A stretch of DNA of 64,000 nt from an uncultured Syntrophaceae bacterium (GTDB taxonomy: Bacteria > Desulfobacterota > Syntrophia > Syntrophales > UBA8958): the NCBI GenBank assembly GCA_964492965.1, contig CAZBME010000006.1:5672-69671 (forward strand), given 5' to 3'. Every line of letters begins with the position of its first letter. Position 1 is the first letter of the stretch. Positions 14,080-46,332 of this stretch are shown here, in pieces. Below the pieces are notes generated by a model. The model was not told the DNA's origin, did no database searches, and was given only the letters and a program-made list of their open reading frames with translations. Position numbers and translations under genes: made by a program.

Positions 14080-14105
14080 CAGAGAGATCAGGAAGAGGTT
14101 AAAAA

Positions 14106-16289: not shown

Positions 16290-16437
16290 GAAACGTACCG
16301 ATCTTCAAATAAATGCCGGCATTTTGATTTGACGGCATCTACGTTTCGAGACTATACTCGCATTGCAGATGGCCTTGTTACGGCTTCATCGTTGATCCAT
16401 TAAAATAATCATGTTCTAATGATTCAAGGGGGAGCAA

Positions 16438-17358: not shown

Positions 17359-17394
17359 AAAAGTCCATCCGCACTTTAATCTTCCTGGAAGTGA

Positions 17395-17435
17395 GCATAC
17401 GTCATTTTTGACGGGTATGCCTTGTTTCAATTTGA
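17395..17435 (+). terminator. Rho-independent terminator candidate after the OCD-family gene
   Basis: GCATACGTCA-TTTT-TGACG(GG)TATGC forms a 10-bp stem with a 2-nt bulge at 17395-17420. It is followed by CTTGTTTCAATTTG. Confidence 0.5.
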
Positions 17436-17581
17436 TAATAAGTACAGTTCACGATTGGCAACAGGCATCGTCACCATGCCACATATTTTGCAGTCTATAC
17501 TTTCTTGGCATACCAGACCATGCTTCTTATACTACTTTCCATCAGGAGCAAGTTCTTCTCAAGATAAATCATACAGCGTTA

Positions 17582-17595
17582 TGTGAAATTTCACA
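17582..17595. promoter_or_regulatory. Perfect 14-bp palindrome TGTGA-AATT-TCACA (CRP/FNR-family-like half sites)
   Basis: Read directly at 17582-17595, about 135 bp upstream of the TPR gene. The half sites equal the CRP consensus, but the spacer is 4 nt rather than 6 nt. About four perfect 14-bp palindromes are expected by chance in 64 kb. Confidence 0.2.
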
Positions 17596-17730
17596 GCACT
17601 ACTTTGCGTGTAAACAGATTCAAACGCGTCAAAGTATCGCATGTGATCTGTCTCTTTTTTTCAGAGAAAATATTTGTTTCATACGAAACTACCATGTAAT
17701 ATCATGTGAGTAAATCATCTGGAGGACATT

Positions 17731-18183
17731 ATGCGGTGTCGTGGAATAATTATTCCTGCTCTGGTTCTGGCCGGGTTGTTGTTTTCGCAAGTTGCGCAGG
17801 CATTGACGATGGAGCCCCCATTGCCGAATGATTGTGCAGAGGCGGAAAAAGCGACGGATCCGCAGACCAAGGTAAACTTGTACACACGCTGCCTTGATGC
17901 GACCGATAAGTACGATAGACCACTCGAGGCCTATCAGCGCAATAATATATATTTTCATCGTGCCAATGCGTTGTTCGAACTGCAACGCTACGCAGAAGCA
18001 CTTGCCGACTATGACCGGTTTCTTGCCAAAACCAGCAGCGGCCATGTCTGGGCGCTGCATCAGCGTGGATTGACACATCAGGCGATGGGGCAACGTCAAC
18101 TTGCTCTTGCTGACTTCAAGCAGGCATTGGAGTCCAATCCTGATGCACTCTGGGTGCGCATAGGGCCGAAGGGGGCTGCGTAG
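17731..18183 (+). CDS. Secreted TPR-repeat protein
   Basis: 150 aa with a signal-like N-terminus (IIIPALVLAGLLFSQVAQA) and TPR-like repeats (YFHRANALFELQRYAEALADYDRFL, HQRGLTHQAMGQRQLALADFKQALESNP). RBS GGAGGA. Confidence 0.7.
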   Translation: MRCRGIIIPALVLAGLLFSQVAQALTMEPPLPNDCAEAEKATDPQTKVNLYTRCLDATDKYDRPLEAYQRNNIYFHRANALFELQRYAEALADYDRFLAKTSSGHVWALHQRGLTHQAMGQRQLALADFKQALESNPDALWVRIGPKGAA

Positions 18184-18399
18184 GTAACCTTCTCCATATG
18201 CATAGATAGGGAATATAAAATAAATGTAATCTGGTTAATGGGAGGTTCTTCCTCAAATGTTTGCTTGAAACCTTTTGTCTCTTGTGCAAGATTATAAATG
18301 ATTATCGCTGACTCCGCGATTTTATCGATGGTGAATATCGGAAGGGAAATACGTCTAACCGCTTTATTTTTTTAGGACGTGAAGAAAGGAGAATGCATT

Positions 18400-19557
18400 G
18401 TGATTGATTTCAGTTTGAACAAGGATCAACAAAAATTGTTGAATTTAGCGAAGGATTTTGCTGAAAAGGAAATTAGACCTGTAGCAATCGAATATGATCG
18501 TGAAGGGGCCTATCCCGAAGCAATCCTTAAGAAGGCACATGAACTTGGGTTGATGTACACGAATATTCCCAAAGAGTATGGTGGCTCTGGCATGAGTTTT
18601 TTGGAGCATTATGTCGTAACGGAAGCCATGAACTATGAATGCTGTGCCATCGGGCAGCAGATAGGTATATCGCACCTGGCGACAGGGGCCATCCTCATCG
18701 GGGGTAGTGAGGAACAGAAGAAAAAGTTTCTCGGGGACATGTGTGGGAGCTATCGGAGTGCCTGTTTCTGTTTGACTGAAACAGAGGCGGGATCGGATGC
18801 GGCTATGATGAGCACAACCGCGGAGAAGAAGGGAGATAAATACATCATCAATGGCACGAAGTGCTACATCACGAATGGTGGATATGCGGACTTGCTTTGT
18901 GTCTTTGCTACGGTCGATAAAAGCCTAGGAACAAAAGGGATAAGTTGTTTCGCGGTTCCAAGGAGTACTCCGGGAATCAAGGTGGGGCGGGTTGAAGATA
19001 AAATGGGCCACAGGGCCTTGAATGTTGTTGAACTCTTCTTTGAAAATGTTGAGGTCGGGAAAGAGAATTTGATTGGTGGGGAAGGCCAGGGATTCAGGTT
19101 GGCGATGATGGCTCTTGATCGAGGCCGTGTGAATATCGCGGCGGTATGCACCGGCATTTCACAGAAGGCACTGGATGAGTCCGTAAACTGGGCAAATACT
19201 CGGGTCCAGTTCGGACAGAAAATCGGCAATTTCCAGGGAGTCCATTTCATGCTCGCTGACATGAATGCCCTGGTGATGGCTTCTCGGGCAATGTACCTGC
19301 AGGTGGCATGGATGCTGGACCAAAGGATGCGATGTACAACGGAAGGGGCGCTAGTTAAGTTTTTTGCCACAGACGCGGCGATGAAGATTACGACAGATGC
19401 GGTTCAGATCCTTGCTGGCTCCGGATACATGAAAGGTTCCATGGTCGAAAAACTAATGCGTGATGCAAAGCTAACCCAAATTTTCGAAGGGACAAACCAG
19501 ATTAACCGGATGGTTGCCGGGCGCGGGATTCTTGGTGGATCTCCTAGGTTGTTTTAA
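18400..19557 (+). CDS. Acyl-CoA dehydrogenase
   Basis: Part of track ORF 18379..19557. I prefer the GTG at 18400, 7 nt after AAAGGAG. Motifs: CFCLTETEAGSDAA, YITNGG, GEGQGF, IFEGTNQI. Confidence 0.9.
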   Translation: MIDFSLNKDQQKLLNLAKDFAEKEIRPVAIEYDREGAYPEAILKKAHELGLMYTNIPKEYGGSGMSFLEHYVVTEAMNYECCAIGQQIGISHLATGAILIGGSEEQKKKFLGDMCGSYRSACFCLTETEAGSDAAMMSTTAEKKGDKYIINGTKCYITNGGYADLLCVFATVDKSLGTKGISCFAVPRSTPGIKVGRVEDKMGHRALNVVELFFENVEVGKENLIGGEGQGFRLAMMALDRGRVNIAAVCTGISQKALDESVNWANTRVQFGQKIGNFQGVHFMLADMNALVMASRAMYLQVAWMLDQRMRCTTEGALVKFFATDAAMKITTDAVQILAGSGYMKGSMVEKLMRDAKLTQIFEGTNQINRMVAGRGILGGSPRLF

Positions 19558-19847
19558 ACATAAATGGTATGGGGATACGGCGAGATTCAGGAGAGGTATT
19601 ATATTGGGGAATTCTTTTCTTTGAGGTATCGCAATCTTTGCCGTACAAATTTTCGTCGGAAGCGGCAAGACTCTGATGATGTGCAATCATGGAAGGAAGT
19701 CCCATGGGCAGTGGAAAGCATTCGGATGGGGGTTGCGATGATTTTGGCAATGTGCTTCCATACAAGCAGAAGCTGTAAATAGAAATTTTCCTGCTAGAAA
19801 TTGTGATTGCCATAACTACTGTTCTGTTGCCGGAGAAAGGTTGGGAT

Positions 19848-20606
19848 ATGTTTGATCTAAAAGGGAAAGTTGCTATTGTCACAGGGGGGAATGGGGGTAT
19901 AGGGCTTGGTATGGCACGAGGATTGGCAAACGCTGGGGCGTGTGTCATCGTGGCTGCTCGAAATGAAGAGAAGTCTAATATGGTCATACAGGATTTGCGG
20001 GCGCTCAGTTCTGACTCATTTGCGCTAAACGTTGATGTAACCGACGAGCAATCGGTTGAAAATATGGTTTGCGAGGTTTCTCAGCGGTGTGGTCGAGTCG
20101 ATATTCTTGTGAATAATGCCGGGATGAATATCAGGAATCCTGTCCAAGATCTTCTTCTTGATGAGTGGCGGCAAGTCTTGGACACAAATCTAACAAGTGC
20201 TTTTCTTTGTGCTCGCAGCGTATATCCCCATATGAAGGAAATAGGTGGGGGCAAAGTCATTAATATCGGATCTATGCTATCGGTATTTGGTGCATCATAC
20301 GCGCCAGCTTACGGGGCAAGCAAAGGCGGTATCGTGCAGCTTACAAAATCAATGGCCGTTGCTTGGGCAGGCGACCATATTCAGGTCAATGCTATATTGC
20401 CAGGCTGGATTGATACTGACCTGACGCGCCAAGCCAGACATAGTGTTCCAGGCTTGCATGATCGAGTTATTAACAGGACACCGGCAGGAAAATGGGGAAA
20501 CATAAATGACCTTGCTGGTATTGCCGTCTTTTTGGCCAGTTCTGCCTCTGATTTCGTCACCGGTGCGGCTATCCCGGTGGACGGTGGTTATTCGGCACTG
20601 GGATAA
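19848..20606 (+). CDS. Short-chain dehydrogenase/reductase (KduD/gluconate-5-dehydrogenase-like)
   Basis: Start at ATG 19848 (MFDLKGKVAIVTGGNGGIGLG) inside track ORF 19803..20606, with NNAG and YGASKGG motifs. Confidence 0.9.
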   Translation: MFDLKGKVAIVTGGNGGIGLGMARGLANAGACVIVAARNEEKSNMVIQDLRALSSDSFALNVDVTDEQSVENMVCEVSQRCGRVDILVNNAGMNIRNPVQDLLLDEWRQVLDTNLTSAFLCARSVYPHMKEIGGGKVINIGSMLSVFGASYAPAYGASKGGIVQLTKSMAVAWAGDHIQVNAILPGWIDTDLTRQARHSVPGLHDRVINRTPAGKWGNINDLAGIAVFLASSASDFVTGAAIPVDGGYSALG

Positions 20607-20789
20607 TCCATTAGATGGGTTTTTGTAAAATCCAAGAGTTATCGCAATGTAACAAGAAAAAGTATCCAATCGGCTGCACGGCTTCTTGACTGAGATCTGT
20701 CGCCAAGAGTGGATACTAAAGTATTCATGCTGTCAGTCATTTTTCATAGAATCATCGTTCAAAAGCGGCTGTGAAAACAAGGAGGATAT

Positions 20790-21566
20790 ATGCTGGAGTC
20801 ATTAAACGACAAAGTGGCATGGGTAACAGGTGCAGGAACGGGTATTGGACAGGCAGGAGCAGTCGCGCTTGCAAAAAATGATGTCAAAGTTATTCTTTCC
20901 GGACGGAGAAGAGAGGCTCTTCAGGAAACAGCCGAAATCATAAAGCAAATTGGCGGAGAGGCCAAAATAGAAATCCTGGACGTTTCGGACGAGAAGGCTG
21001 TTCAAGACGTCGCAGATCGCATTTATGAGGCCTATGGTCGGCTCGATATTCTTGTCAACAATGCAGGAACGAACGTAACGGAGCGGCATTGGGGTACAGT
21101 TACACCGGAAAAATGGAACCAGGTTATCGATATTGACTTGAATGGTGCATTTTACTGCGCTTCAGCGGTAATACCCATCATGAGAAAACAGAAAGACGGC
21201 CTGATCATCAATGTTTCCTCCTGGTATGGCCGCTTTTATTCGTACATTACAGGACCGGCGTACTGTGCCGCAAAGCATGGGCTGCTCGCCATGAATGCAA
21301 CCATCAATATCGAGGAATGCATTCATGGGATAAGGGCATGTGCGATTTGTCCAGCAGAGGTCTGGACACCCATCATCGACAGGCGGCCGGATGCCCTCAG
21401 TAATGAAGAGAAGGCAAAGATGCTGAAGTCTGATGACCTGGGTGAGACCATCCTTTTTGTGGCGCGTCTTCCCAGGCACGTTTGCATCAATGAACTGCTC
21501 ATGAGCCCTACATGGAATCGTGCCTATGTTTATGATTCCAGTCGACAGCCGCCTGTAACGGGTTAA
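20790..21566 (+). CDS. Short-chain dehydrogenase/reductase
   Basis: 258 aa with KVAWVTGAGTGIGQA, NNAG and YCAAKHG. RBS AAGGAGG. Confidence 0.9.
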   Translation: MLESLNDKVAWVTGAGTGIGQAGAVALAKNDVKVILSGRRREALQETAEIIKQIGGEAKIEILDVSDEKAVQDVADRIYEAYGRLDILVNNAGTNVTERHWGTVTPEKWNQVIDIDLNGAFYCASAVIPIMRKQKDGLIINVSSWYGRFYSYITGPAYCAAKHGLLAMNATINIEECIHGIRACAICPAEVWTPIIDRRPDALSNEEKAKMLKSDDLGETILFVARLPRHVCINELLMSPTWNRAYVYDSSRQPPVTG

Positions 21567-21665: not shown

Positions 21666-24305
21666 TCAGTCTTCAGATTCGCTTAACCCATCATCCTCTT
21701 TCGCGGGGGCGCCAGCCTTTTTCGGGATGATTTTTCTGTAGACCTCTTTCGGGGATCTTTTTTGGCCGGCAACGGTTAAAAGCCTGTCGATCGTAATATC
21801 GAAAAGTTTTTCATTCTCTTCCAGATAGGGCAGGATCAATTGCCAATCGGCATCGGTAGTGGCAACGAACTCACCGCCGTTGAGCTGCTCATCGACCAGT
21901 TTTTTGTGGGGATCTCTCACGTAAATCGCACCGCCGGAAGCCAGGGAGAAAATATTGGATCCCGGGTAGGGCGATTCATATTCGCGGATCGATCCGTCGT
22001 TATCATCGAAGCCAATACCGTTCAGAATGACAAAACCACCGCCGTTCAAGGGATCACCGGCCATGAATGATTCCGCAAGGTAGTCCAGGGCTGTCCCGTT
22101 GATGACTACCCGGGGTTTGCCGACGGCGTTGATCAGGGGGCGACCCGCGGCGTTTCCCATGATATAGGCAGTGCCGCCTTTGGCGCCGTACATGAATGTC
22201 TGGCCGACATCGCCGAATACGACCAGCTTTCCTTCTTTCATGATCTGGCAGAGCTGATCCTGGGCATTGCCATGAACATAGATCTCCATGCCGTCAATGC
22301 CCGATGCCAGGTAATCGCCCGATGCGCCATAGACGTCAATCCGCACATCCGTTGTTGCCGGGCCGAACCCGCAGCCCGTAAACCGCTGGCCCCGGTATTT
22401 GTAAACAATAAAACGCTTCCAGCCGAGTTTGTGGGCGGCCACGATCATCACCGCATCGCAGTGGTCGCCTTCCGGCTCAAAATGTTCCGCGTCAATGATG
22501 AGGGTCCTTTCATCATTTTTGGGCGCACGCAGTTGAGCGCGGGTGGCAAAATCGATCCGGCTGAAACGGGCATCGGACTTTTCCGTGATCAGGGGAGTGG
22601 CGGAAAAAATTTCATCCAGAGTGATCTTCAGGACATGCTGGACGGAGCTTCTTTTTATCCGGCCGGTGTTGTACCTCCGGTCGTTCAACAGGGCCAGGGC
22701 GTCGATAGCCGTTTGCTTGAAGTCTTCCTTTTCCAGGGCATATCCCTTGATGGTTTCAATCGCGAACCTGAACCTGTCGGGTTCAAATCCCTCGATATGG
22801 TTCCGGACATAGGTAAATATTTTTTGAGCGGCCGCCGCGGTATCCTTTTCTGAAAACAGTCCGGCAAGTTCTTCTGCTGTTGCTTTCCATTCGTCCGTTG
22901 CGGTGATCTGTTTTGAGATGTCGCAGATGAGTTTGTCTTTGGGCGTTTCGATGACTTTCCCGAATTTGTCGGTGCAGATCAGTGTCTTGCTGCCCGTGCC
23001 GTCACCCGCATCCTTGAGGCTGAAGATGAAGGAGCCGCCATCCGTATAACTGCCGCCGCGGGCGTTCCAGTATTTATCGGCAATGGGCCCGAAGCGCGGA
23101 TCTTCCCGTTCCAGGGAAATAAGAGTTGCATCGATGGCCTGTTTTTCCGAGCATATCAGGCCGATCTGCACTTCCCCTTCCTGCAGGGCAAACACCTGGG
23201 GGCGAAGCATGGCCGTGTCCGTAATGCCGATCAGCTGGAATTGATCATTCTTCCAGTCATTCCGGGCGATAATGAAAAACCATGGCCCGTCGGGCGATGC
23301 ATTGACGTGATGGGTCTGGATGGCCTTATACAGCTCCTGCTTTTCTGCAGGAAGCATGTCAAAATCCATTTCCGATGTTGGCGCCATGGCCTCGATCAGG
23401 TATTCCAGGGGATATTTGTAGACACGGCTCCACAGGTCGAGAAGGCAGGCGGCCTCCTCCGTATCCGTCAGAAACAGGGGATAATAGTTCCGCTGCTTGA
23501 GATATTCATAGACGGCCTGATAGTTTGCGAAATCGCCGTTGTGCACCAGCGCTTCATTGAGTGCGCTGAACGGGTGGCAGCCGCCGGGATGCCAGACGCG
23601 GCCGCGGGTCGGATAACGCTGGTGGGCAAGCCAGGCGTGGGCCTTAAAATCATCCAGTTTGTAGTACCGGACCACATTTTCCGCATAACCGACGATTTTC
23701 AGAATCATCATGTTCCTGCCATGGGACATGACAAAGGCCTTTTTTTCACCGAGGGAAGCATAATACTGCGAGTTGATTTTGAAGCTGTTCTGATAGACAA
23801 ACTCGTCCTCGGCATCCCGCCGGTCCATGGAGGAGAAGTTGTTATCGTCAATGTATTTGTCCAGGATGTCGTCCTTGACGCGCACGAAATAACGCATGAC
23901 ATCAGGGGGCCTGACGTCAAGACCGATGCTGCGGTGGTCGTCAATCGTAGCCAGCTTTTCGGACTTGTCGATTTTAAAGTAAGGTTTGATGTACGTGTTT
24001 TCAATTTCATCGGCCACCGTGGGGTCCAGGAGGGCGATGTGGAACATGTAATCCTCGTCGAGGACCTGACGGGAAACACCCAGGGCTTCGGGAACAAATC
24101 CGACGGCGCCTATGCCGCCGCCTTTCCCGTTGCCTCTGTTGTGCATCTGCGCGGACGGTTCAAAGATGTTCTTCCCGGTGACGGGAATGGAACAGATAAA
24201 TCCGGTGACGCCGCAGCCGCCTTCCTCTTCGGTATTCGGGGCGAGAGTGGGCACCTGGCTGCAAATCTCAGTGCGTGAATATAATATTTTTTCAGCATTA
24301 TCCAT
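21666..24305 (-). CDS. Glutamate-synthase-like fusion: class-II (Ntn) glutamine amidotransferase domain plus long middle region plus C-terminal GXGXG beta-helix domain
   Basis: Part of track ORF 21666..24314. I prefer ATG 24305 (GGAG 10 nt upstream). The N-terminus reads ...EEEGGCGVTGFI...HNRGNGKGGGIG...AHQRYPTRG...VHNGDFANY (Ntn-GATase-like, with the catalytic Cys behind a roughly 30-aa leader). The C-terminus reads YKYRGQRFTGCGFG...VYGASGDYLASGIDGMEIYVHGNAQDQ...GDVGQTFMYGAKGG...GNAAGRP (GXGXG repeats). Confidence 0.8.
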   Translation of the reverse strand: MDNAEKILYSRTEICSQVPTLAPNTEEEGGCGVTGFICSIPVTGKNIFEPSAQMHNRGNGKGGGIGAVGFVPEALGVSRQVLDEDYMFHIALLDPTVADEIENTYIKPYFKIDKSEKLATIDDHRSIGLDVRPPDVMRYFVRVKDDILDKYIDDNNFSSMDRRDAEDEFVYQNSFKINSQYYASLGEKKAFVMSHGRNMMILKIVGYAENVVRYYKLDDFKAHAWLAHQRYPTRGRVWHPGGCHPFSALNEALVHNGDFANYQAVYEYLKQRNYYPLFLTDTEEAACLLDLWSRVYKYPLEYLIEAMAPTSEMDFDMLPAEKQELYKAIQTHHVNASPDGPWFFIIARNDWKNDQFQLIGITDTAMLRPQVFALQEGEVQIGLICSEKQAIDATLISLEREDPRFGPIADKYWNARGGSYTDGGSFIFSLKDAGDGTGSKTLICTDKFGKVIETPKDKLICDISKQITATDEWKATAEELAGLFSEKDTAAAAQKIFTYVRNHIEGFEPDRFRFAIETIKGYALEKEDFKQTAIDALALLNDRRYNTGRIKRSSVQHVLKITLDEIFSATPLITEKSDARFSRIDFATRAQLRAPKNDERTLIIDAEHFEPEGDHCDAVMIVAAHKLGWKRFIVYKYRGQRFTGCGFGPATTDVRIDVYGASGDYLASGIDGMEIYVHGNAQDQLCQIMKEGKLVVFGDVGQTFMYGAKGGTAYIMGNAAGRPLINAVGKPRVVINGTALDYLAESFMAGDPLNGGGFVILNGIGFDDNDGSIREYESPYPGSNIFSLASGGAIYVRDPHKKLVDEQLNGGEFVATTDADWQLILPYLEENEKLFDITIDRLLTVAGQKRSPKEVYRKIIPKKAGAPAKEDDGLSESED

Positions 24306-24322
24306 TATTAGCAAACTCCGCT

Positions 24323-25804
24323 TTAATTACTGTAATCGATGTGTTCGAGCAGGTCCGTCCGGCCCACAAGTTCCGTGACACTTTTCATGCCGAACTTCTG
24401 AAGGATCTCGACAAGCTGGACATTCCATGCATGGTACATATTGGTCAGGCGCTGTGTCGCCCATTCCTCGCCGAACAGGTCCGCCAATTCGGAGTCTGTC
24501 GAGGCGATGCCCCGGGCGCAACCTCGTCCCGATTCACAATTGCCGCAACGGACACATTCCAGGGAGACCATCTCTGAGGTGCCGATCACGGCCCCGTCCG
24601 CGCCAAGGCAGATCGCTTTGGCCAGATCATGGGCGGTCCGGATGCCGCCGGAGGCGATGAGCGTCACGGCATCCCGGGCGCCCTCATCCTTCAGGAAACC
24701 ATGAACCTTGGCGATGGCGTACTCGATGGGCATGGCAATGTTCTTCTTGGCAATATCCGGCGCTGCGCCGGTGCCGCCGTAACCGCCGTCGATGTGGATA
24801 ATATGTGCGCCGGCATAGTAGGAGCCGACGGCAACCATGTCCACGTCATTGGGTGTGGACACCTTGACGGAAACCAGGGCCAATGGATTCATCTGCTTGA
24901 TCCAGTCGATGTGCTTCTTATGATCTTCGATGGAATAGACCGAATGAAACGGGAAGGGCGAAAACAGGGAGGTGCCCTTGACGGCCTCCCGCATTTTGGC
25001 GACGCTTTCCGTATTTTTTTCTCCGAGGAGGTGTCCGCCGAGGCCCGGTTTTGCACCCTGCGCGTATTTAAACTCGACGATTTTCACCCGCTGGATAGTC
25101 TCCTCGCGCACACCGAAGAGCCCCGTAGCGATCTGGGTGATCACGTGGTCATCATAAGGTTTGAGCACCTCCGGGTAGCCGCCTTCACCGGTGCAGGTAA
25201 AGGTATTCCATATGGCGGCATTCCGTGCCTTGGAAACCATGGTGGGCAGGCTGACAGACCCGAAGGACATGCCGCCGCCATAGACCGGGGTCGAGATGAC
25301 CACATTGGCCCGTCCGTCGTTTCTCCGGTTCAGTTTAATTTCCGTAGAGATTTTATTCTTGTCAATCTTCGGCGGGTTGGCGGGAAACTTGAACCGCAAC
25401 TTGTCGAAACCGCCGCCGGAATTGCCCACGTTGTATTCGAGGTCCGTCCGTGCGGGCGGATAACCCGTCTCGGCCATGATCCACGTGCCGGTGATCATGT
25501 CCGCCGTCCAGCGGAAGTCGCCCAGCGTCTCATACATGGGATTAAGGGACAGGCTCAAGGCCTGCCGCGGGCATTTGCCGATGCAGCAAAAAGTCTTCTG
25601 CTGGCATTCAAAGCCGATGCATTTGTAGTCGATGGGCGGATTTACCCGGTTGTGCCCTTCAACCCTTTCATGGACGCCATAGGGGCATGTCTTGGCGCAC
25701 GTTCCGCAGTCAATGCAAGCATCAGACCGGGTAACCTTGTACTTCGGCACTTGATGTTTGAATCGTGAAGGCATGTTTTTAATTTTTACAGTAGATGGTT
25801 TCAT
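24323..25804 (-). CDS. Glutamate synthase FMN-binding (GltB domain 2) subunit with N-terminal 2x[4Fe-4S] ferredoxin (archaeal-type)
   Basis: 493 aa with CIDCGTCAKTCP...CIGKCP, then GGGMSFGSVS, TGEGGYPE, YAQGAKPGLGGHLLG, HSVYSIEDH, IDGGYGGTGAAP and ASGGIRTAHDLAKAICLGADG. The ATG overlaps the upstream stop (ATGA at 25801-25804). Confidence 0.85.
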   Translation of the reverse strand: MKPSTVKIKNMPSRFKHQVPKYKVTRSDACIDCGTCAKTCPYGVHERVEGHNRVNPPIDYKCIGFECQQKTFCCIGKCPRQALSLSLNPMYETLGDFRWTADMITGTWIMAETGYPPARTDLEYNVGNSGGGFDKLRFKFPANPPKIDKNKISTEIKLNRRNDGRANVVISTPVYGGGMSFGSVSLPTMVSKARNAAIWNTFTCTGEGGYPEVLKPYDDHVITQIATGLFGVREETIQRVKIVEFKYAQGAKPGLGGHLLGEKNTESVAKMREAVKGTSLFSPFPFHSVYSIEDHKKHIDWIKQMNPLALVSVKVSTPNDVDMVAVGSYYAGAHIIHIDGGYGGTGAAPDIAKKNIAMPIEYAIAKVHGFLKDEGARDAVTLIASGGIRTAHDLAKAICLGADGAVIGTSEMVSLECVRCGNCESGRGCARGIASTDSELADLFGEEWATQRLTNMYHAWNVQLVEILQKFGMKSVTELVGRTDLLEHIDYSN

Positions 25805-27210
25805 ACGCTCGCAGCTTCTCTGTTTTTAAATAGTTTTCCAAAGGTTTCATGGTCGATGTCATCAAAAAAGATGGCCCGGCCGGTTTCTCCCCGCAGACGA
25901 CGGGCTTCTCGGATGCCCATGGCGCCCATTACCTCAAGGAGTTGTGAATGCCAGGCCCCCATGAGGTTGATGATCCTCTGGGTGACAATTTTCACCGGGA
26001 TTTTTTCCAACCGTTCGGGGAAAACCAGCAACTTTTCCGGTTCCTCGTATAGACGGACGCCGAGGGCAATGAGCAACGGCATGTCGATGGCGGTCAAGTC
26101 TGCGCCACAGAGCATGGCCTTGGGAACATGCTCCGCCATGGCGATTCCACCGGAGAAAATCAAGGTGATTTCATCGCGGATCCGGTCTTCAACAAGCCGC
26201 AGGTGGACGGCCCGGATAATATCTTTTATCAAACGAGGGCTTGAGGTCGATGCACCAGCGATCTCCAATCCGCGGTAGTCGGCAACGACATGGATAATCT
26301 CCGCGCCGCTGTGTGCAAGCTTGGAAACAATGTCCTCCACATCCTTCACCGCCGGAATTCTGATGATCGTGAGTGCCTTGCTGATGCTTTTGATCTTGTC
26401 TTTCACGGCCGGGAAATGGTTCAGCAGTTCATCATTATACTCAACGGCCACGATTCGCGCCTTCTTGATGACGGCCTGATGTTTGTCAATGTCTGTATGC
26501 GTTATGAAGGGGATGATGTTTGGGGTATACTTTTCAACATCCTTTGTCATGCCGGCAACCGGCATGATGATGCATGTGTTGATCTCCGCCGCCGCCCTGG
26601 CCAGTGCCACCTTGATATTCTTGCTCAGGTTATCCGCCGGGATATCGAAGAGAATGGGAATGGGAAGATCGACCGTATCGGGAATCTTCGACAACAACTG
26701 TCCGTTTGCATCAAAGGCCAGATGATTGAGTTTCCTGCCCAGTTCAACGGAGGTGCTGATATATTCCCGTCCATGGATGCCATCCCGGGTCGGTCGGACG
26801 ATTTCAGACATGTCCGTCCACATGCTGTCAAACCCCGTTCCGGTAAACGGTCCCCTGTATCCGGCGCCGGAAACGGGGACCTTCCCGTCCTCCGCCTGTT
26901 TCCACAGGGTGATGAACATATCGGATTTCCAGTAGGAACCGCCGATATTCAGGAAGTCGCGTTCCAGTGATTTTTCCAAGGCGCCCCGGGGGCACTCCTG
27001 AATGCACCGGAAACAGTTTCTGCACACGACGGTGTTGGGGTCCGCCATCTTTCGCGGATCGTCTTTCCCTCGTTTATGGGCCTCATAGATGCATACTTTG
27101 GTGCACCGGCCGCAGTTGATGCAGTTTTCTCCCCGGACAATCTTGAACTTGAATATGGATTCAAGATCAAGGGGCGTCGCTTTTGCGTGGATGTGATATT
27201 TTTTAGGCAT
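25801..27210 (-). CDS. Ferredoxin-fused, catalytically degenerate paralogue of the glutamate-synthase FMN/central-domain barrel
   Basis: 469 aa with CINCGRCTKVCIYEAH...CRNCFRCIQECP. The remainder aligns by eye to the neighbouring FMN subunit only at the ends (GYRGPFTGTGFD...; ITLIFSGGIAMAEHVPKAMLCGADL). It lacks MSFGS, TGEGG, QGAKPG and DGxGGTGA. Confidence 0.65.
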   Translation of the reverse strand: MPKKYHIHAKATPLDLESIFKFKIVRGENCINCGRCTKVCIYEAHKRGKDDPRKMADPNTVVCRNCFRCIQECPRGALEKSLERDFLNIGGSYWKSDMFITLWKQAEDGKVPVSGAGYRGPFTGTGFDSMWTDMSEIVRPTRDGIHGREYISTSVELGRKLNHLAFDANGQLLSKIPDTVDLPIPILFDIPADNLSKNIKVALARAAAEINTCIIMPVAGMTKDVEKYTPNIIPFITHTDIDKHQAVIKKARIVAVEYNDELLNHFPAVKDKIKSISKALTIIRIPAVKDVEDIVSKLAHSGAEIIHVVADYRGLEIAGASTSSPRLIKDIIRAVHLRLVEDRIRDEITLIFSGGIAMAEHVPKAMLCGADLTAIDMPLLIALGVRLYEEPEKLLVFPERLEKIPVKIVTQRIINLMGAWHSQLLEVMGAMGIREARRLRGETGRAIFFDDIDHETFGKLFKNREAASV

Positions 27211-27256
27211 AATTGTTATTCGTCTTTATGAAATGAAGTTTATATGTGACAGTGGC

Positions 27257-29101
27257 TCAGTTGTTCCGCTCCACCATGGCCCAGTATTCCTTGCTGTCGT
27301 CGACCTTCTTCAGGAAGTCCGCGATTTGTGCTTCCGGACGGCCGAACTTGCCCTCCATCCTATTTTCCAGCGCGTCCCAGAGCATCATGAGCTCAAGATT
27401 GGTCTGGCATATCTCCTCGCAGGCTTTGCAGTGCATGCACATAAAAGCGTTTGCCGCTTCCGCAGGCGTCACTTCTTTTCCCGTAATGAGCTTCTTGGCC
27501 AGCGCTACCTTCCCTTTCGCCGTGACGCCTTCATTCCCTGTGACGAGGTAGGCGGGGCATACGGCGATACAGTTCCCGCACTTGGCGCAGGCATGGGTGG
27601 TGAGCTCGAAATCGAGGTTGTCAACCTTTTCATCCTTTCCCAGGAGCCATGTGGCCGCTTTACCGATGATCGGCGAAAAGAGCGTCAGGAGGTTCATGGA
27701 AAAACCGAAAACGGCCGGATTGAAGAGAAGGGTGGAGAGCCCCGTTGAATTGACACCGAAGAATTTTCCCGGATTCAGGATGTTGTTCGGGTCCACTTTG
27801 GCCTTGTATGCTTTCAGCTCCCGCTGTTTTTCACTGCTGTAGAGGTCATTGATAAAGGCGGCATTCCAGAGGCCAAGGCCATAGGGCTCGGCGCCCAATG
27901 AAACCGCCGTCTTGGTGAGCATGGAAACCAGGGGCATATTCATATAATATTTTTTGCTCCTGGAGTCGCAAAGGAAAGTGGCCATGATAAGTGCCTGTTT
28001 TTCATCCAGGATATACGAGTCTATGCATACTTCAACTCCGAAACGGTTGCCCAGTTTTTTTGCTTTTTCAATAAAGGTTGGGGCTACGGTGATCGGGATA
28101 ATAATCTCACTGGCCAGGATGGTCGGTCCCAGGCGCTTTGTCTTCATCCCAAAAAGGCGTTCATTCCACAGATACCCGGCGGCATAACGGGGCGCGGCCT
28201 CAATATGACCCGCTTTGGCCATGAATTTCACAAAAGATTCTTCATCCTCCGCGCTGCTGAACTCCACGAGGACGCCGGCGCTCTTCTTGAATATGCCGGC
28301 CCGCATGACCGCGTTTGTGTCATTCAAATGATTTTCATCCAAAAACCGGATGACGTTGGGGTTGAGCTTCTCCGCGCTTTTGCTTTTTATGAATCGGTCG
28401 ATAAATGCGAAAGCCTCTTTATCGTCATTGAAATACAAAAGATGTGCGTATGAGGCCTTCGGCATGTCCCGAAGCTTGAGGGTGGCTTCAACCACGATGC
28501 CGAATTCTCCCTCGGTGGAAACAAAGAAGGTGAAATCAGGGTCGACAGGGGACAGCGTTTTGAGTTCGCCGGCGCCTGTAATCACCTTCATGGACACAAT
28601 TTGCTTTGATAAGTGACCGTATCTGAAGCTGTTAATCCCGTAGCCGCCCGTCGAGATCCAACCGGCGACCGTGGAAAACTTGCTTGAGGGATAGGTCATC
28701 AGGCACAAGCCCTCTTTCTTGGCCATGATATCGATATCGCTCCATCGGGCGCCCGCTTCAACGGTGACGGTCTTTTCTTCGGTGTTGAGCTCCAGGATTT
28801 CCCGGAAAGGAGACAGGTCGATGACGATCCCGGCATTGGTAGGGATGACGCCGCCGAAGCCCCATGATGCGGAGCCTCTCGGTGTCACAGGGATCTTCTG
28901 CGCGTTGGCAAACGCCAGGACCTTTTTTATCTCGTCCGTGTTTTTGGGCTGGATGACAAAATCGGGTTGCGTTTGAAAAAATGTTTTGGTCATGATCTCT
29001 GGAACATCGCCGATGTCATGACTGTACATCTCTCGTTCTTCCATTTTGTCGAGTATTTTTATATCGCCCGCGATCTTTCTGAATTCTTCTACTGGCTTCA
29101 T
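27257..29101 (-). CDS. FAD-linked oxidase (GlcD/D-2-hydroxyacid dehydrogenase family) fused to a C-terminal 2x[4Fe-4S] domain
   Basis: 614 aa with an FAD-binding PCMH-type region (KIPVTPRGSASWGFGGVIP...GIVIDL...VEAGARWSDI...TVAGWISTGGYG). The C-terminus carries CAKCGNCIAVCP and CMHCKACEEICQ. It is the first gene behind the sigma-54 promoter at 29196-29211. Confidence 0.8.
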   Translation of the reverse strand: MKPVEEFRKIAGDIKILDKMEEREMYSHDIGDVPEIMTKTFFQTQPDFVIQPKNTDEIKKVLAFANAQKIPVTPRGSASWGFGGVIPTNAGIVIDLSPFREILELNTEEKTVTVEAGARWSDIDIMAKKEGLCLMTYPSSKFSTVAGWISTGGYGINSFRYGHLSKQIVSMKVITGAGELKTLSPVDPDFTFFVSTEGEFGIVVEATLKLRDMPKASYAHLLYFNDDKEAFAFIDRFIKSKSAEKLNPNVIRFLDENHLNDTNAVMRAGIFKKSAGVLVEFSSAEDEESFVKFMAKAGHIEAAPRYAAGYLWNERLFGMKTKRLGPTILASEIIIPITVAPTFIEKAKKLGNRFGVEVCIDSYILDEKQALIMATFLCDSRSKKYYMNMPLVSMLTKTAVSLGAEPYGLGLWNAAFINDLYSSEKQRELKAYKAKVDPNNILNPGKFFGVNSTGLSTLLFNPAVFGFSMNLLTLFSPIIGKAATWLLGKDEKVDNLDFELTTHACAKCGNCIAVCPAYLVTGNEGVTAKGKVALAKKLITGKEVTPAEAANAFMCMHCKACEEICQTNLELMMLWDALENRMEGKFGRPEAQIADFLKKVDDSKEYWAMVERNN

Positions 29102-29195
29102 GTATGCTATGTCTCTTCAGTTGTTATAATGAGGGGGTCAATTGTCGCCCCATGTTCTTGTGGATTACGGAAAGCTGCTATGGAGCCGCAGTAAG

Positions 29196-29211
29196 AGCAA
29201 GATAAATGCCA
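29196..29211 (-). promoter_or_regulatory. Sigma-54 (-24/-12) promoter candidate
   Basis: The minus strand reads TGGCATTTATCTTGCT. It matches TGGCAC-N5-TTGCW at TGGCA and TTGCT with exact GG-to-GC spacing, about 95 nt upstream of ATG 29101. Confidence 0.7.
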
Positions 29212-29372
29212 CAACCTGAGTTGTACTTCCAGAGTCGCTCTTGGGAGAGTGTGCTTTTCCTGCCGATAGTAGCAGGGGAAGCGCCCATGCCGCTTTCTCC
29301 GTATCAAGGGGTCTTTGCCTACAACAATAAATTGTGGCTGTCAACACTTTTTTGTCACTAATTCAAATATTA

Positions 29373-29383
29373 AACAAAATTGT
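29373..29383. promoter_or_regulatory. AACAAAATTGT box, candidate enhancer (UAS) element, copy 1
   Basis: An exact 11-mer shared with 44756-44766. It lies about 165 bp upstream of the -24 element, a typical bEBP distance. The core ACAA-AA-TTGT is an interrupted dyad. Confidence 0.3.
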
Positions 29384-44775: not shown

Positions 44776-46332
44776 TTATTGGATTGTTCCCGTTGCGGCT
44801 TCCCGTTTCTTCTGGTTAAACTTCTTGGGATCGATCTCCAGTTTTTGTATTTTGTATTGGATAATACGCTTGGTGGTCCCTAATAGTTTTGCCGCCTTAC
44901 TCTGATTGCCCTTCGTTTCCTTCAAGGCGTCGATAATCAGTGAGCGTTCCTGGGATTCGATGACGGTGTTGAAGCGCCCGGTTTCCTTTTTTTCGCCCTC
45001 CCGTATTTTGGTCTGCAGGGAGGGCGGAAGGTGAATCATTTCAATGGAATCTCCCTCCGCGAGAATAACCGCCCGCTCAATGCAGTTTTCGAGTTCCCGC
45101 ACGTTGCCGGGCCATTTGTGGGTCAAGAACGCCTCGATGACGCCCGTGGATATTCTTTTTACTGGTTTCCCAATTTCTTTCGCATATTTCAGAACGAAGT
45201 GATCGGCCAGGAGGATGATATCGTTACCTCGTTCGCGCAGGGGCGGCAGGTAGACGGGAAAGACGCTCAGGCGATAATACAGGTCGTTACGAAATTGCCC
45301 GGCGGTGATACAGTCCTCCAGGCGGCGATTCGTCGCCGCTATGACCCGCACATCCGTCTTGACCAGACGGGGAGAGCCCAGGGGTTGAAACTGCCTTTCC
45401 TGAAGAACTCTGAGCAGTTTTGCCTGGGCAGCGGCGGACAGCTCCGACACCTCATCGAGGAAGATCGAGCCGCCGTTGGCCTCTTCAAACCGCCCGCGAT
45501 GCTGCCGCAGGGCTCCCGTAAAAGCCCCCTTTTCATGACCGAAGAGTTCGCTTTCAATGAGCGTATCGGGTATGGCGGCGCAATTGACCTGAATCAAAGG
45601 GCCCTTGCTGCGGGGGCTGTTCATATGGATGGCTTTGGCGATGAGTTCTTTGCCCGTACCCGTTTCTCCATTGATGAGGACGGTTGTACTGGAGTCGGCC
45701 ACATGGCTGATCAGGCCGAAGACTTCCTGCATTCCCTTGGAATGTCCTATGATATCCGTAGAGGGGGTCTTGCCCTGATTGATGATCTGTCGCAGGCGAC
45801 GGTTTTCCTCTTCCAGGGCCAGGATATGGACGGCCTTGGCAATGAGTTCGGCCACGGAGGATAAAATAGCCAGTTCGCCGTCCAGGTTTGTGACGTTTTT
45901 GTACCCTTTGTCTGCCGAGAGGATGCCAACCACCCGGGAATCGTACATGATGGGGACGCAAAGGAAAGACAATTCGTCCTGGTTCAGGAATCGTCTGGCA
46001 CCCGTACGATCCAGAAAGAGGGCTTCTTTGCCGAGGACGGGAATAGCCATGGGGCGACCGGTCTGGGCGACCTTGCCGGTAATACCCTCACCCATTTGAT
46101 ATGAGATTTCCATGCCTTCGAGGTTGACGCCGTGGGCGACCTCCAGCCAGACTTCGCCATTATCGCGGTTCAGAAGGGCAATCATGCCCCGTTCCATCCC
46201 AAGTCGTTTATTCATTTCGCCCATGACCTGCTCAAGCTGGTCCCTCAGGTCCCAGGGTTGGGCCAGGATCTTGGCTATGGCATGCAGGGCGGCCAGTTCT
46301 TCGTAATTATGATTGCTCATGGTGTCATCCAT
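44776..46332 (-). CDS. Sigma-54-dependent transcriptional activator with N-terminal GAF domain (NifA-like architecture: GAF, AAA+, Fis-type HTH)
   Basis: 518 aa with a GAF-like N-terminus, an AAA+ core ([19 protein letters not shown]...GAFTGA...GGSIFLDEV...ATNR) and a C-terminal HTH ([20 protein letters not shown]). It has no receiver domain. Confidence 0.9.

What the first reader, a model, noticed from the sequence alone, without database searches (positions are those of the whole stretch)
21666..29211. Sigma-54-driven operon encoding a second, rearranged glutamate-synthase-like complex headed by an FAD-oxidase/Fe-S protein
Seen, in order behind a near-consensus sigma-54 promoter (TGGCATTTATCTTGCT):
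- a GlcD-type FAD-linked oxidase with a C-terminal 2x[4Fe-4S] domain (614 aa)
- a ferredoxin-fused barrel protein that aligns to the FMN subunit only at its ends and lacks MSFGS, TGEGG, QGAKPG and DGxGGTGA (469 aa)
- a canonical ferredoxin-FMN glutamate-synthase subunit (493 aa; ATGA overlap with the previous gene)
- an 879-aa fusion of an Ntn-type amidotransferase (Cys behind a roughly 30-aa leader) with the GXGXG beta-helix domain

A GltD-type NAD(P)H subunit is present in the other GOGAT operon at 39460-44545 but is absent here.

Established: glutamate synthase needs GATase, FMN and GXGXG domains plus a two-electron donor. GlcD-family enzymes oxidise D-2-hydroxy acids.

Inference (speculative): the FAD/Fe-S protein replaces GltD as the electron-input module. 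If its substrate were D-2-hydroxyglutarate, it would supply both 2-oxoglutarate and the two electrons, giving a redox-neutral reaction (2-hydroxyglutarate + glutamine to 2 glutamate). I do not know of a description of such a system.
Basis: partly seen in the sequence, partly recalled or inferred. Interest (0 to 1): 0.75.

Follow-up and report, generated by a model that had tools for sequence, protein, structure and literature searches.

The report
Glutamate synthase with swapped electron-input module
A nitrogen-regulated four-gene operon encodes an undescribed, widespread form of glutamate synthase: a dead copy of its flavin subunit and an FAD/iron-sulfur protein stand where the usual NADPH subunit would be, but the proposed 2-hydroxyglutarate fuel is not supported.

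Summary
Four tightly packed minus-strand genes (21666-29101) follow a unique, cross-genome-conserved sigma-54 promoter (29196-29211).

- P1: FAD protein plus 2x[4Fe-4S].
- P2: ferredoxin-fused, catalytically dead duplicate of the FMN subunit.
- P3: canonical ferredoxin-FMN glutamate-synthase subunit.
- P4: Ntn-amidotransferase/GXGXG fusion, true length 879 aa.

P2-P3-P4 is an invariant, co-linear core found in at least 594 species genomes, bacterial and archaeal. P1 precedes it in 29 of 81 loci. It is followed by P2 in all 76 informative metagenome loci. It is fused to P2 in Chloroflexota (19-member cluster). Elsewhere P1 is replaced, mutually exclusively, by MvhD alone, MvhD-MetV or MvhD-MetV-MetF. 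This supports the reading that P1 is a swappable electron-input module replacing GltD.

The D-2-hydroxyglutarate idea is not supported. The whole P1 family lacks the metal-binding His/His/Glu and catalytic His motifs of GlcD-type D-2-hydroxy-acid dehydrogenases. It scores far below every curated equivalog cut-off. The donor remains unknown.

I found no description of this system in the literature searched. Verdict: a real, new variant of a known enzyme kind. Interest 0.65.

The parts
29196..29211 (-). Sigma-54 -24/-12 promoter element TGGCATTTATCTTGCT, 94 nt upstream of the P1 start codon
   Evidence: It is the only strict TGGCAY-N5-TTGCW match in the window, against 0.11 expected. The same element lies 89-137 nt upstream of P1 in L001-L006, L012, L016, L019 and L021. 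It forms the only invariant block besides the ribosome-binding site in the 9-locus upstream alignment.
29324..29335 (.). Palindrome ACAATTTATTGT, a candidate enhancer-binding-protein site about 113 nt upstream of the -24 element. A second, imperfect copy (ACAATTTTGT) lies at 29374-29383.
   Evidence: It is the single window match to ACAAT-N0-3-ATTGT, against 0.24 expected. Similar ACAAT..ATTGT boxes align in L002, L004-L006, L012 and L021. Its function is inferred, not shown.
27257..29101 (-). P1: FAD-binding (PCMH/VAO fold) dehydrogenase with a C-terminal 2x[4Fe-4S] domain, 614 aa. Proposed electron-input module.
   Evidence: PF01565 7.8e-35, PF02913 1.7e-11 and Fer4_8 4.4e-09. The eight cluster Cys (505/508/511/515 and 555/558/561/565) are invariant. 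The fold matches D-LDH and AGPS at TM about 0.74 and 0.64. It lacks the catalytic motifs of D-2-hydroxy-acid dehydrogenases.
25801..27210 (-). P2: 2x[4Fe-4S] ferredoxin domain fused to a degenerate duplicate of the glutamate-synthase FMN barrel, 469 aa. Proposed scaffold and electron relay.
   Evidence: Shown. The family has an invariant signature, PVSGAGYRGPF..GFD..WTDMSEIVRPTRDGIHGRE. The Cys motif beside the former FMN site is lost in this clade (0 of 23) but kept in all 52 MvhD-type relatives and 7 other P1-type relatives.
24323..25804 (-). P3: ferredoxin-fused canonical FMN/2-oxoglutarate (synthase) subunit, 493 aa
   Evidence: PF01645 9.6e-86. It is 34% identical to the FMN domain of a canonical 1544-aa GltB, with every motif aligned. 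The motifs are at least 95% conserved in 69 orthologues.
21666..24305 (-). P4: Ntn (class II) glutamine amidotransferase, helical linker and GXGXG beta-helix in one 879-aa protein
   Evidence: GATase_6 and GXGXG. Cys31 in EEGGCGVTGF, and the MHNRGNG, HQRYPTxGRVWHP, VHNGDFANY and DTE motifs, are conserved in 46 orthologues. It is 24% identical to the archaeal-type GATase subunit at 43430-44545. The only significant structural matches are glutamate synthase alpha subunits.
44776..46332 (-). NifA-like GAF / sigma-54-AAA+ / HTH activator, the probable regulator of the operon (inferred)
   Evidence: PF00158 3.7e-70, plus GAF and HTH_8. TIGR01817 nifA scores 482 bits, below its 529-bit cut-off. Its orthologue lies directly next to the four-gene cluster in L001, L002, L004-L006, L021, L109, L123 and L159.

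Best explanation
The operon encodes a four-subunit iron-sulfur flavoenzyme that makes glutamate from glutamine and 2-oxoglutarate. It is expressed from a sigma-54 promoter, probably under a NifA-like, nitrogen- or 2-oxoglutarate-responsive activator.

Proposed roles:
- P4: its N-terminal Cys is exposed by removal of a roughly 30-residue leader. It hydrolyses glutamine, and its GXGXG domain braces the complex.
- P3: takes the ammonia and reduces 2-iminoglutarate on FMN.
- P2: a catalytically dead duplicate of P3 that keeps its 2x[4Fe-4S] domain. It acts as scaffold and electron relay.
- P1: stands in place of the GltD subunit. Its FAD takes two electrons from a still unidentified donor. The electrons pass one at a time through the cluster chain P1 (2 clusters), P2 (2 clusters), P3 (2 clusters plus the cluster next to FMN), and then to FMN.

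The donor is not a 2-hydroxy acid oxidised by the GlcD mechanism.

Shown here: the domain content, motif conservation, operon structure, promoter conservation, co-linearity, gene fusions, and the mutually exclusive alternative modules.

Inferred: complex formation, the direction and path of electron flow, leader removal, and the regulator.
For: - Domains and motifs.
- Catalytic residues of P4 and P3 are at least 95% conserved across architectures.
- The genes are packed tightly: a 46-nt gap, a 4-nt overlap and a 17-nt gap.
- The sigma-54 element is unique in the window and conserved in position in relatives.
- P2-P3-P4 is co-linear in every locus with enough DNA, out of at least 594 species genomes carrying a P2 relative.
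- P1 is followed by P2 in 76 of 76 informative metagenome loci.
- P1-P2 fusion proteins exist (P0146, P0148, P0259, P0265). One cluster has 19 members, at least 9 of them full length, from independent assemblies on contigs up to 258 kb. P2-P3 fusions also exist.
- The upstream partner is either P1 (29 loci) or MvhD alone, with MetV, or with MetV and MetF (44 loci), never both. Only 1 informative locus has neither.
- The nitrogen context is consistent: GSIII, carAB, guaA, purF, a NifA-like activator and a second GOGAT in the window; glnA, amt and PII in relatives.
Against: - No biochemical or expression data exist for any member.
- No complex model could be made with these tools.
- P1's substrate pocket cannot be read. 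The model has mean pLDDT 71, with the active-site loops below 50.
- P1 is absent from most of the wider family, so the P2-P3-P4 core does not depend on it.
- The core carries ferredoxin-type domains and might simply accept electrons from free ferredoxin.
- The organism already has an NAD(P)H-type GOGAT 10 kb away, so the need for a second one is unexplained.
- The AlphaFold model of the P4 amidotransferase domain was poor.
Confidence: 0.6

Rival explanations
1. P2-P3-P4 is a self-sufficient ferredoxin-dependent glutamate synthase. P1 (and MvhD/MetVF elsewhere) are merely co-expressed enzymes with their own function and are not part of the electron path.
For: P2 and P3 each carry a ferredoxin-like 2x[4Fe-4S] domain that could dock soluble ferredoxin. 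The core occurs without P1 in most lineages.
Against: P1-P2 single-polypeptide fusions occur in several independent assemblies. P1 and MvhD-type genes are mutually exclusive and always immediately upstream on the same strand. Only 1 of 75 informative loci lacks any partner.
Confidence: 0.15
2. P1 is a D-2-hydroxyglutarate (or other D-2-hydroxy-acid) dehydrogenase that supplies both 2-oxoglutarate and electrons, giving a redox-neutral 2-hydroxyglutarate + glutamine -> 2 glutamate reaction.
For: The closest solved relatives by sequence and fold are the D-lactate dehydrogenases LctD and LDHD. The Trp-x-x-Arg motif aligning with the LW.AR motif of LctD and LDHD is kept (LWNER). That this Arg binds the substrate carboxylate is from memory. 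The reaction is thermodynamically reasonable (general knowledge).
Against: The GH.GDGN.H and GEHGIG motifs are absent from the window protein and from all bacterial, archaeal and fused orthologues. The 8jdb entry is the H405A variant, and the Ala falls on the second His of that motif. That these motifs carry the metal ligands and the catalytic His is from memory of the LDHD/D2HGDH structure papers. NCBIfam scores are far below cut-off: GlcD 123 against 568, YdiJ 63 against 1350. Human D2HGDH matches only the FAD domain, at 6e-07. Alkyl-DHAP synthase, which is not a hydroxy-acid dehydrogenase, is an equally good structural match.
Confidence: 0.04
3. The complex is not a glutamate synthase. It could be another GOGAT-like enzyme (for example N-methylglutamate-synthase-like), or an electron-transfer module serving another reaction such as methylene-tetrahydrofolate reduction in the MetFV-linked relatives.
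For: GOGAT-like three-part enzymes with other chemistry exist (MgsABC; general knowledge, and mentioned in PMC6237917). In 28 loci the core follows MvhD-MetV-MetF with gaps of 8-240 nt.
Against: P3 keeps every 2-oxoglutarate/FMN motif of authentic GltB at 95% or more, and P4 keeps the Ntn Cys and oxyanion motifs. The neighbours are glutamine synthetase, amt/PII, a NifA-like activator and glutamine-dependent biosynthetic genes. No methylamine-pathway genes turned up in the Pfam and NCBIfam scans of the window genes between 12.6 and 46.3 kb; no such gene was specifically searched for.
Confidence: 0.1

Closest known systems
NAD(P)H-dependent glutamate synthase, including the split 'archaeal-type' form (GltB1/GltB2/GltB3 + GltD), present in this same window at 39460-44545
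   Same: It has the Ntn amidotransferase, the ferredoxin-fused FMN/2-oxoglutarate domain with an adjacent Fe-S cluster, and the GXGXG beta-helix. The motifs align one to one.
   Different: There is no GltD subunit. The GATase and GXGXG domains are fused through a helical linker. An extra, catalytically dead FMN-subunit paralogue (P2) is obligatory. An FAD(PCMH-fold)/2x[4Fe-4S] protein sits in the donor position.
Ferredoxin-dependent glutamate synthase (single-chain Fd-GltS, e.g. Synechocystis 1OFD)
   Same: It has no pyridine-nucleotide subunit, and electrons enter through Fe-S centres to FMN. It is the structural match for the GXGXG part.
   Different: Fd-GltS is a single chain with a central domain and no ferredoxin-type dicluster domains. 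Here there are three dicluster domains and a dedicated flavoprotein. P2 matches the FMN domain, not the central domain, of GltB. It may play an analogous scaffolding role (inference).
Putative F420-dependent glutamate synthases FGltS(I/II) of methanogens, and FrhB10-GOGAT clusters of ANME (PMC3448663, PMC9012536)
   Same: They share the concept: a GOGAT core combined with a non-GltD, Fe-S-containing flavoprotein as a dedicated electron-input subunit. Both were predicted from gene context only.
   Different: The input subunit there is an FrhB/FpoF-type F420H2 dehydrogenase. P1 has no such domain, and it also occurs in bacteria.
GlcD/GlcF-type FAD + Fe-S 2-hydroxy-acid dehydrogenases (GlcDEF, YdiJ, LctD, LDHD)
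   Same: It has the FAD_binding_4 and FAD-oxidase_C fold followed by a GlcF-like 2x[4Fe-4S] segment.
   Different: It lacks the His/His/Glu metal site, the catalytic His and the CCG domains. All equivalog scores are far below cut-off.
MetFV-HdrABC-MvhD methylene-tetrahydrofolate reductase complexes of acetogens (as described in PMC9012536, PMC9430772)
   Same: In 28 relatives of the core, MvhD, MetV and MetF genes precede P2-P3-P4 in the place that P1 occupies here.
   Different: The window operon has none of these genes. No HdrA turned up among the recurrent conserved neighbours of the fetched loci, though HdrA was not searched for directly. The link of MTHFR-type proteins to a GOGAT core was not described in the papers I found.

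Membership tests
Glutamate synthase (glutamine:2-oxoglutarate amidotransferase) | Class II (Ntn) amidotransferase domain with catalytic N-terminal Cys and the R / N-G / D motifs | tested here: met
   Cys31 in EEGGCGVTGF, and the MHNRGNG, HQRYPTRG, VHNGDFANY and DTE motifs, are conserved in 46 orthologues. It is homologous to the GltB1-type subunit. Removal of the 30-residue leader is assumed, not shown.
Glutamate synthase (glutamine:2-oxoglutarate amidotransferase) | FMN/2-oxoglutarate synthase domain (PF01645) with the MSFGS, TGEGG, QGAKPG, SIED and GGTGA motifs | tested here: met
   P3 matches PF01645 at 9.6e-86. It is 34% identical to the GltB FMN domain. The motifs are at least 95% conserved in 69 orthologues. 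P2 fails this test.
Glutamate synthase (glutamine:2-oxoglutarate amidotransferase) | Fe-S cluster next to FMN | tested here: met
   P3 has C-x2-C-x2-C-x5-C (CVRCGNCESGRGC) aligned to the C-x5-C-x4-C of GltB. Four Cys suggest a [4Fe-4S] rather than a [3Fe-4S] cluster (inference).
Glutamate synthase (glutamine:2-oxoglutarate amidotransferase) | GXGXG beta-helix domain | tested here: met
   PF01493 3e-13 at P4 residues 654-812. Foldseek hits only glutamate synthase alpha subunits: 7mfm_G, 6s6s_A and 1ofd_A.
Glutamate synthase (glutamine:2-oxoglutarate amidotransferase) | Known electron-donor part: a GltD-type NAD(P)H/FAD subunit (NAD(P)H class) | tested here: not met
   There is no GltD homologue in the operon, nor next to it in 161 related loci, except as part of separate canonical operons.
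Glutamate synthase (glutamine:2-oxoglutarate amidotransferase) | Catalysis of glutamine + 2-oxoglutarate + 2 e- -> 2 glutamate | not testable with these tools
   This needs an enzyme assay or genetic complementation.
GlcD-type D-2-hydroxy-acid dehydrogenase (GlcD, D-LDH, D2HGDH/YdiJ) | FAD_binding_4 + FAD-oxidase_C two-domain fold | tested here: met
   PF01565 7.8e-35 and PF02913 1.7e-11. Foldseek TM (target) is 0.73-0.75 to the mouse and isopod D-LDH.
GlcD-type D-2-hydroxy-acid dehydrogenase (GlcD, D-LDH, D2HGDH/YdiJ) | Metal-binding His-x6-His ... Glu-His active-site motifs (GH.GDGN.H, GEHGIG) | tested here: not met
   The window has DSYILDEKQAL and GAEPYGLGLWN at these positions. The same holds in 19 orthologues and fusions from bacteria and archaea. 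The role of the residues is from my memory of the LDHD/D2HGDH structure papers. The H405A entry 8jdb confirms that the second His lies in this motif.
GlcD-type D-2-hydroxy-acid dehydrogenase (GlcD, D-LDH, D2HGDH/YdiJ) | Score above the curated equivalog cut-off | tested here: not met
   TIGR00387 glcD scores 123 bits against a 568-bit cut-off, NF008408 scores 86 against 897, and NF049975 YdiJ scores 63 against 1350.
Sigma-54-dependent operon | -24 GG / -12 GC element with consensus flanks at a fixed distance upstream of the first gene | tested here: met
   TGGCATTTATCTTGCT is unique in the window and conserved in at least 10 related loci.
Sigma-54-dependent operon | Cognate bacterial enhancer-binding protein | tested here: inconclusive
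   A NifA-like activator lies 15 kb upstream in the window, and its orthologues sit beside the cluster in relatives. Binding to the ACAAT..ATTGT boxes was not tested.
Sigma-54-dependent operon | Single transcript starting about 12 nt downstream of the GC | not testable with these tools
   This needs 5' RACE or RNA-seq. Gene spacing (46, -4 and 17 nt) is consistent with one transcript.
F420-dependent glutamate synthase (FGltS, predicted) | FrhB/FpoF-type F420H2 dehydrogenase subunit | tested here: not met
   None of the four proteins matches such a domain.
N-methylglutamate synthase (MgsABC) | Neighbouring gamma-glutamylmethylamide synthetase and N-methylglutamate dehydrogenase genes, and no external electron-transfer domains | tested here: not met
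   Pfam and NCBIfam scans of the window neighbours show GlnN-type GSIII, carAB, guaA and purF, and no sarcosine-oxidase-like Mgd genes. Three dicluster domains are present. No Mgs reference sequences were compared directly.

The most novel reading that the evidence does not exclude
P2-P3-P4 is a universal 'plug-in' glutamate-synthase core of anaerobes. It is wired directly to interchangeable dedicated dehydrogenase modules: P1 with an unknown substrate here, MvhD alone in some lineages, and an MTHFR-type MetFV-MvhD module in many sulfate reducers and others. Nitrogen assimilation would then draw electrons straight from a specific metabolite or redox complex. One candidate is methyl-tetrahydrofolate. 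The electrons would not pass through the NAD(P)H or free-ferredoxin pools. If so, P1 defines a new catalytic subfamily of VAO/PCMH flavoproteins.
Probability: 0.35. Interest if true: 0.8.

Novelty: new variant of a known kind. Interest (0 to 1): 0.65.

Why it matters
Glutamate synthase is the main gate for nitrogen into biomass. Textbooks list NADPH-, NADH- and ferredoxin-dependent classes, plus a predicted F420 class. This locus belongs to a further, unnamed architecture. It occurs in at least 594 species genomes, among them syntrophs, sulfate reducers, Chloroflexota, anammox relatives, methanogens and ANME. Databases label its parts only as 'FAD-binding protein', 'glutamate synthase domain-containing protein' or even 'glucosamine-fructose-6-phosphate aminotransferase'.

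If the electron-input modules really are swappable, the family shows how energy-limited anaerobes choose the reductant for nitrogen assimilation. It also offers a tractable system (four genes, soluble, no membrane anchor predicted) for finding a new donor and a new VAO-family chemistry. The pseudo-enzyme P2 is a clean example of a duplicated catalytic subunit turned into a scaffold or electron wire.

Tried and rejected
- D-2-hydroxyglutarate or 2-hydroxy-acid donor: rejected as unsupported after the active-site comparison and the equivalog scores.
- P2 as a homologue of the GltS 'central domain': rejected. The profile comparison places it on the FMN domain (residues 1017-1206 of a 1544-aa GltB), and it is a full-length paralogue of P3.
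- Membrane anchoring of P1 through its hydrophobic 455-487 linker: the best 19-residue Kyte-Doolittle mean is 1.42, below the usual 1.6 threshold, so it is not called a transmembrane helix.
- RNA regulators in the 550-bp leader or intergenic region: no Rfam match at E up to 1.
- Intrinsic terminators between the genes: none lie in the short intergenic gaps. The scan found no more sites than shuffles gave.
- Structure of P4: mean pLDDT 59.5, with the amidotransferase half below 50, so it was used only for the GXGXG part and the helical linker.
- Structure of P1: useful for the fold only, because the active-site loops are below pLDDT 50.
- Literature: six full-text searches and targeted reading found no description of this gene set. 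Combinations of these terms were used: glutamate synthase, FAD-linked oxidase, GlcD, MvhD, MetF, sigma-54, Syntrophus, GltB1/GltB3.
- The look-up of encoding contigs for the 100%-identical P0001 returned nothing.
- Both collection scans returned only the best 80 loci. Distant P1 homologues outside this context were therefore not sampled.

Full report
**Observation**

- P1 (27257-29101, 614 aa) has an FAD_binding_4 domain (7.8e-35), an FAD-oxidase_C cap (1.7e-11) and a C-terminal 2x[4Fe-4S] segment.
- P2 (25801-27210, 469 aa) has an N-terminal dicluster ferredoxin domain. It matches only the last part of the glutamate-synthase FMN domain (PF01645, 3.6e-08).
- P3 (24323-25804, 493 aa) has the same ferredoxin domain and a full PF01645 match (9.6e-86).
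- P4 has a class II amidotransferase and a GXGXG domain.

A three-way alignment of P2, P3 and the FMN subunit of the window's other GOGAT operon was informative. P2 has lost MSFGS, TGEGG, the QGAKPG...SIED loop, DGxGGTGA, and the Cys motif next to the FMN site. P4 begins at ATG 24305: the 100%-identical database protein has 879 aa. The gene spacing is a 46-nt gap, a 4-nt overlap and a 17-nt gap.

The element TGGCATTTATCTTGCT (29196-29211) is the only strict TGGCAY-N5-TTGCW match in 64 kb, where 0.11 is expected. The other GOGAT operon (39460-44545) carries a GXGXG-GltD fusion. No GltD homologue is in or next to the four-gene cluster.

**What the parts are**

P3 is 34% identical to the FMN domain of a canonical 1544-aa GltB, with every functional motif aligned. 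In 69 orthologues these motifs are at least 95% conserved.

In P4, five motifs are conserved in 46 orthologues: Cys31 in EEGGCGVTGF, MHNRGNG, HQRYPTxGRVWHP, VHNGDFANY and DTE. Residues 440-600 are poorly conserved. The P4 amidotransferase domain is 24% identical to the archaeal-type GATase subunit at 43430-44545, which starts Met-Cys.

P2 is a full-length paralogue of P3 (hhalign probability 100%, E 2e-52, 418 columns) with a 44-column deletion over the substrate loop. Against whole GltB it matches the FMN domain, not the central domain. The P2 family has its own invariant signature, PVSGAGYRGPF..GFD..WTDMSEIVRPTRDGIHGRE.

P2 is therefore a pseudo-enzyme that keeps its iron-sulfur domain. In the window's clade it has also lost the Cys motif beside the former FMN site. 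All 52 MvhD-type relatives and 7 other P1-type relatives keep it.

**Regulation**

A -24/-12 element lies 89-137 nt upstream of P1 in L001-L006, L012, L016, L019 and L021. In a nine-locus alignment of the upstream regions it is the only invariant block apart from the ribosome-binding site.

A NifA-like GAF/AAA+/HTH activator lies at 44776-46332. Its orthologues sit directly beside the four-gene cluster in several relatives. A palindrome, ACAATTTATTGT (29324-29335), about 113 nt upstream of the promoter, is unique in the window. It has counterparts in relatives and is a candidate activator site.

The surrounding minus-strand block consists entirely of genes that make or use glutamine: GOGAT, GSIII, carA, guaA, carB and purF.

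**Comparative genomics**

A search of 1.84 billion representatives with P2 found 243 clusters at E of 1e-30 or better. A scan of one genome per species found at least 594 genomes with a P2 relative. They include Syntrophales, Desulfobacterota, Chloroflexota, Nitrospirota, Brocadiaceae, Methanocellales, ANME-1 and Methanomassiliicoccaceae.

In all loci with enough DNA, P2, P3 and the P4 fusion follow each other on one strand. P2 and P3 are fused in L022, L040, L056 and L062.

The gene immediately upstream falls into mutually exclusive classes:

| Upstream partner | Loci |
|---|---|
| P1 | 29 |
| MvhD-MetV-MetF | 28 (+2 truncated) |
| MvhD-MetV | 4 |
| MvhD alone | 12 |
| None | 1 |
| Too short to tell | 5 |

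glnA often lies further upstream.

I then ran the test in the other direction. A metagenome scan with a P1-family alignment gave at least 497 relatives. In the best 80 loci (65-82% identity), P2 follows P1 in 76. The other four have less than 760 bp of downstream DNA.

Four representative proteins of 1098-1218 aa carry FAD_binding_4, FAD-oxidase_C, Fer4, Fer4 and the degenerate barrel in one chain. One of these clusters has 19 members, at least nine of them full length, from NCBI, JGI, ENA and Logan assemblies of Chloroflexota on contigs up to 258 kb.

These fusions, the strict adjacency and the mutually exclusive alternatives are the main evidence that P1 works together with the core as one of several interchangeable redox modules.

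**Is P1 a 2-hydroxy-acid dehydrogenase?**

Its best solved relatives are LctD (1.5e-24) and mouse LDHD (6e-22). Human D2HGDH matches only the FAD domain, at 6e-07. Curated equivalogs are missed by wide margins: GlcD scores 123 bits against a cut-off of 568, and YdiJ scores 63 against 1350.

Where LctD and LDHD have GH.GDGN.H and GEHGIG, P1 has DSYILDEKQAL and GAEPYGLGLWN. As I recall from the LDHD/D2HGDH structure papers, those motifs hold the metal ligands and the catalytic His. The H405A entry 8jdb shows that the second His lies in this motif.

The same replacement is found in bacterial, archaeal and fused orthologues. The family conserves instead LWxER, PYGxGxWN and a set of Tyr/Asp/Lys residues.

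An AlphaFold model (pLDDT 71, pTM 0.68) matches D-lactate dehydrogenases (TM 0.73-0.75 on the target) about as well as alkyl-DHAP synthase. So 'GlcD-type' holds for the fold only, and the donor cannot be named.

**Mechanism proposed**

- Shown: domain content, motif conservation, operon structure, promoter conservation, co-linearity, fusions, and alternative modules.
- Inferred: P4 loses its leader and hydrolyses glutamine. P3 reduces 2-iminoglutarate on FMN. P2 is scaffold and relay. The FAD of P1 oxidises an unknown donor and feeds electrons through six [4Fe-4S] clusters and the cluster next to FMN.

I put 0.6 on this.

The rivals are:
- A self-sufficient ferredoxin-dependent core with P1 as a bystander (0.15). 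The fusions and the exclusivity pattern argue against it.
- A non-GOGAT chemistry (0.1). The fully conserved synthase and amidotransferase sites and the nitrogen-assimilation context argue against it.

**Comparison with what is known**

The core is a glutamate synthase by every sequence criterion except the donor subunit. The nearest precedent in concept is the predicted F420-dependent FGltS of methanogens (PMC3448663), together with the FrhB10-GOGAT clusters of ANME (PMC9012536). There a different Fe-S flavoprotein sits in the donor position.

No NCBIfam model names P2 or P4. Sources call these proteins 'FAD-binding protein', 'glutamate synthase domain-containing protein 1/3' or 'glucosamine-fructose-6-phosphate aminotransferase'. 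Six literature searches found no description.

I rate it a new variant of a known kind.

**Limits**

- There are no expression or biochemical data.
- Complex modelling is not available with these tools.
- The alignments allowed for structure prediction were shallow, and the P4 model is poor in its amidotransferase half.
- Both scans kept only the best 80 loci, so distant P1 homologues in other contexts were not sampled.
- Whole genomes could not be checked for the presence of other GOGAT or GDH genes.

Noticed in passing
L022-L081 (e.g. L046:7939-9987, L063:7868-9982): In relatives that lack P1, the same GOGAT-like core is preceded on the same strand by MvhD (PF02662), a MetV-like protein (PF12225) and a MetF methylene-tetrahydrofolate reductase (PF02219). 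glnA often lies further upstream. The gaps between MetF and P2 are as small as 8-50 nt. This occurs across Desulfobacterota, Nitrospirota, Chloroflexota, Actinomycetota and Leptospirales MAGs. I found no description of an MTHFR-type module wired to a glutamate-synthase core.
   Followed up: partly
window 44613-44628 (-): A second sigma-54-like element, TGGCATCATTTTCGCT (GG-N10-GC, 2 mismatches), lies 68 nt upstream of the start of the canonical split GOGAT operon (44545). Both GOGAT operons may therefore be sigma-54 dependent. Matches at this stringency are no commoner than chance in the window as a whole (12 found, 16.7 expected).
   Followed up: partly
window 21666-46332 (-): One 25-kb minus-strand block holds only genes that make or use glutamine: a NifA-like activator, GATase-FMN-GXGXG/GltD GOGAT, type III glutamine synthetase, carA, guaA, carB, purF (TIGR01134, 500 bits), and then the four-gene operon.
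   Followed up: partly
window 25801-27210 (-), P2 residues 378-404: The C-x2-C-x2-C-x5-C motif beside the former FMN site is absent from P2 in the window's clade (0 of 23). It is present in all 52 MvhD-type relatives and in 7 archaeal, Desulfobacteria and Brocadiaceae P1-type relatives. P2 has thus degenerated in steps.
   Followed up: yes
window 22600-22900 (-), P4 residues about 470-570: The poorly conserved middle of P4 is predicted with high confidence (pLDDT 80-94) as a bundle of five helices. It has no significant structural match in the PDB. Its role is unknown.
   Followed up: partly
window 27640-27740 (-), P1 residues about 455-487: A conserved hydrophobic, Pro-containing linker (LLFNPAVFGFSMNLLTLFSPIIG) joins the FAD cap to the Fe-S domain of P1. 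It falls below the transmembrane threshold (Kyte-Doolittle 1.42) and has low model confidence. It may be a docking surface.
   Followed up: partly
L022, L040, L056, L062; proteins P0123, P0127: P2 and P3 are fused into single proteins of about 990-1090 aa in several Nitrospirota, Latescibacterota and delta-proteobacterial MAGs. Together with the P1-P2 fusions, this links P1, P2 and P3 pairwise.
   Followed up: yes
L055:14299-19497, L056:14629-18725: In two Nitrospirota-type MAGs, a canonical split GOGAT (GATase, FMN, GXGXG-GltD) lies directly downstream of the MvhD-MetVF-core cluster. The two GOGAT types therefore coexist side by side, as they do in the window.
   Followed up: no
window 12600-21566 (+): Downstream, and convergent with the operon, lies a plus-strand set of genes: short-chain fatty acid transporter, SDR, beta-keto acid cleavage enzyme (BKACE), ornithine cyclodeaminase/mu-crystallin, TPR protein, acyl-CoA dehydrogenase and two more SDRs. 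It has no evident link to the finding.
   Followed up: no
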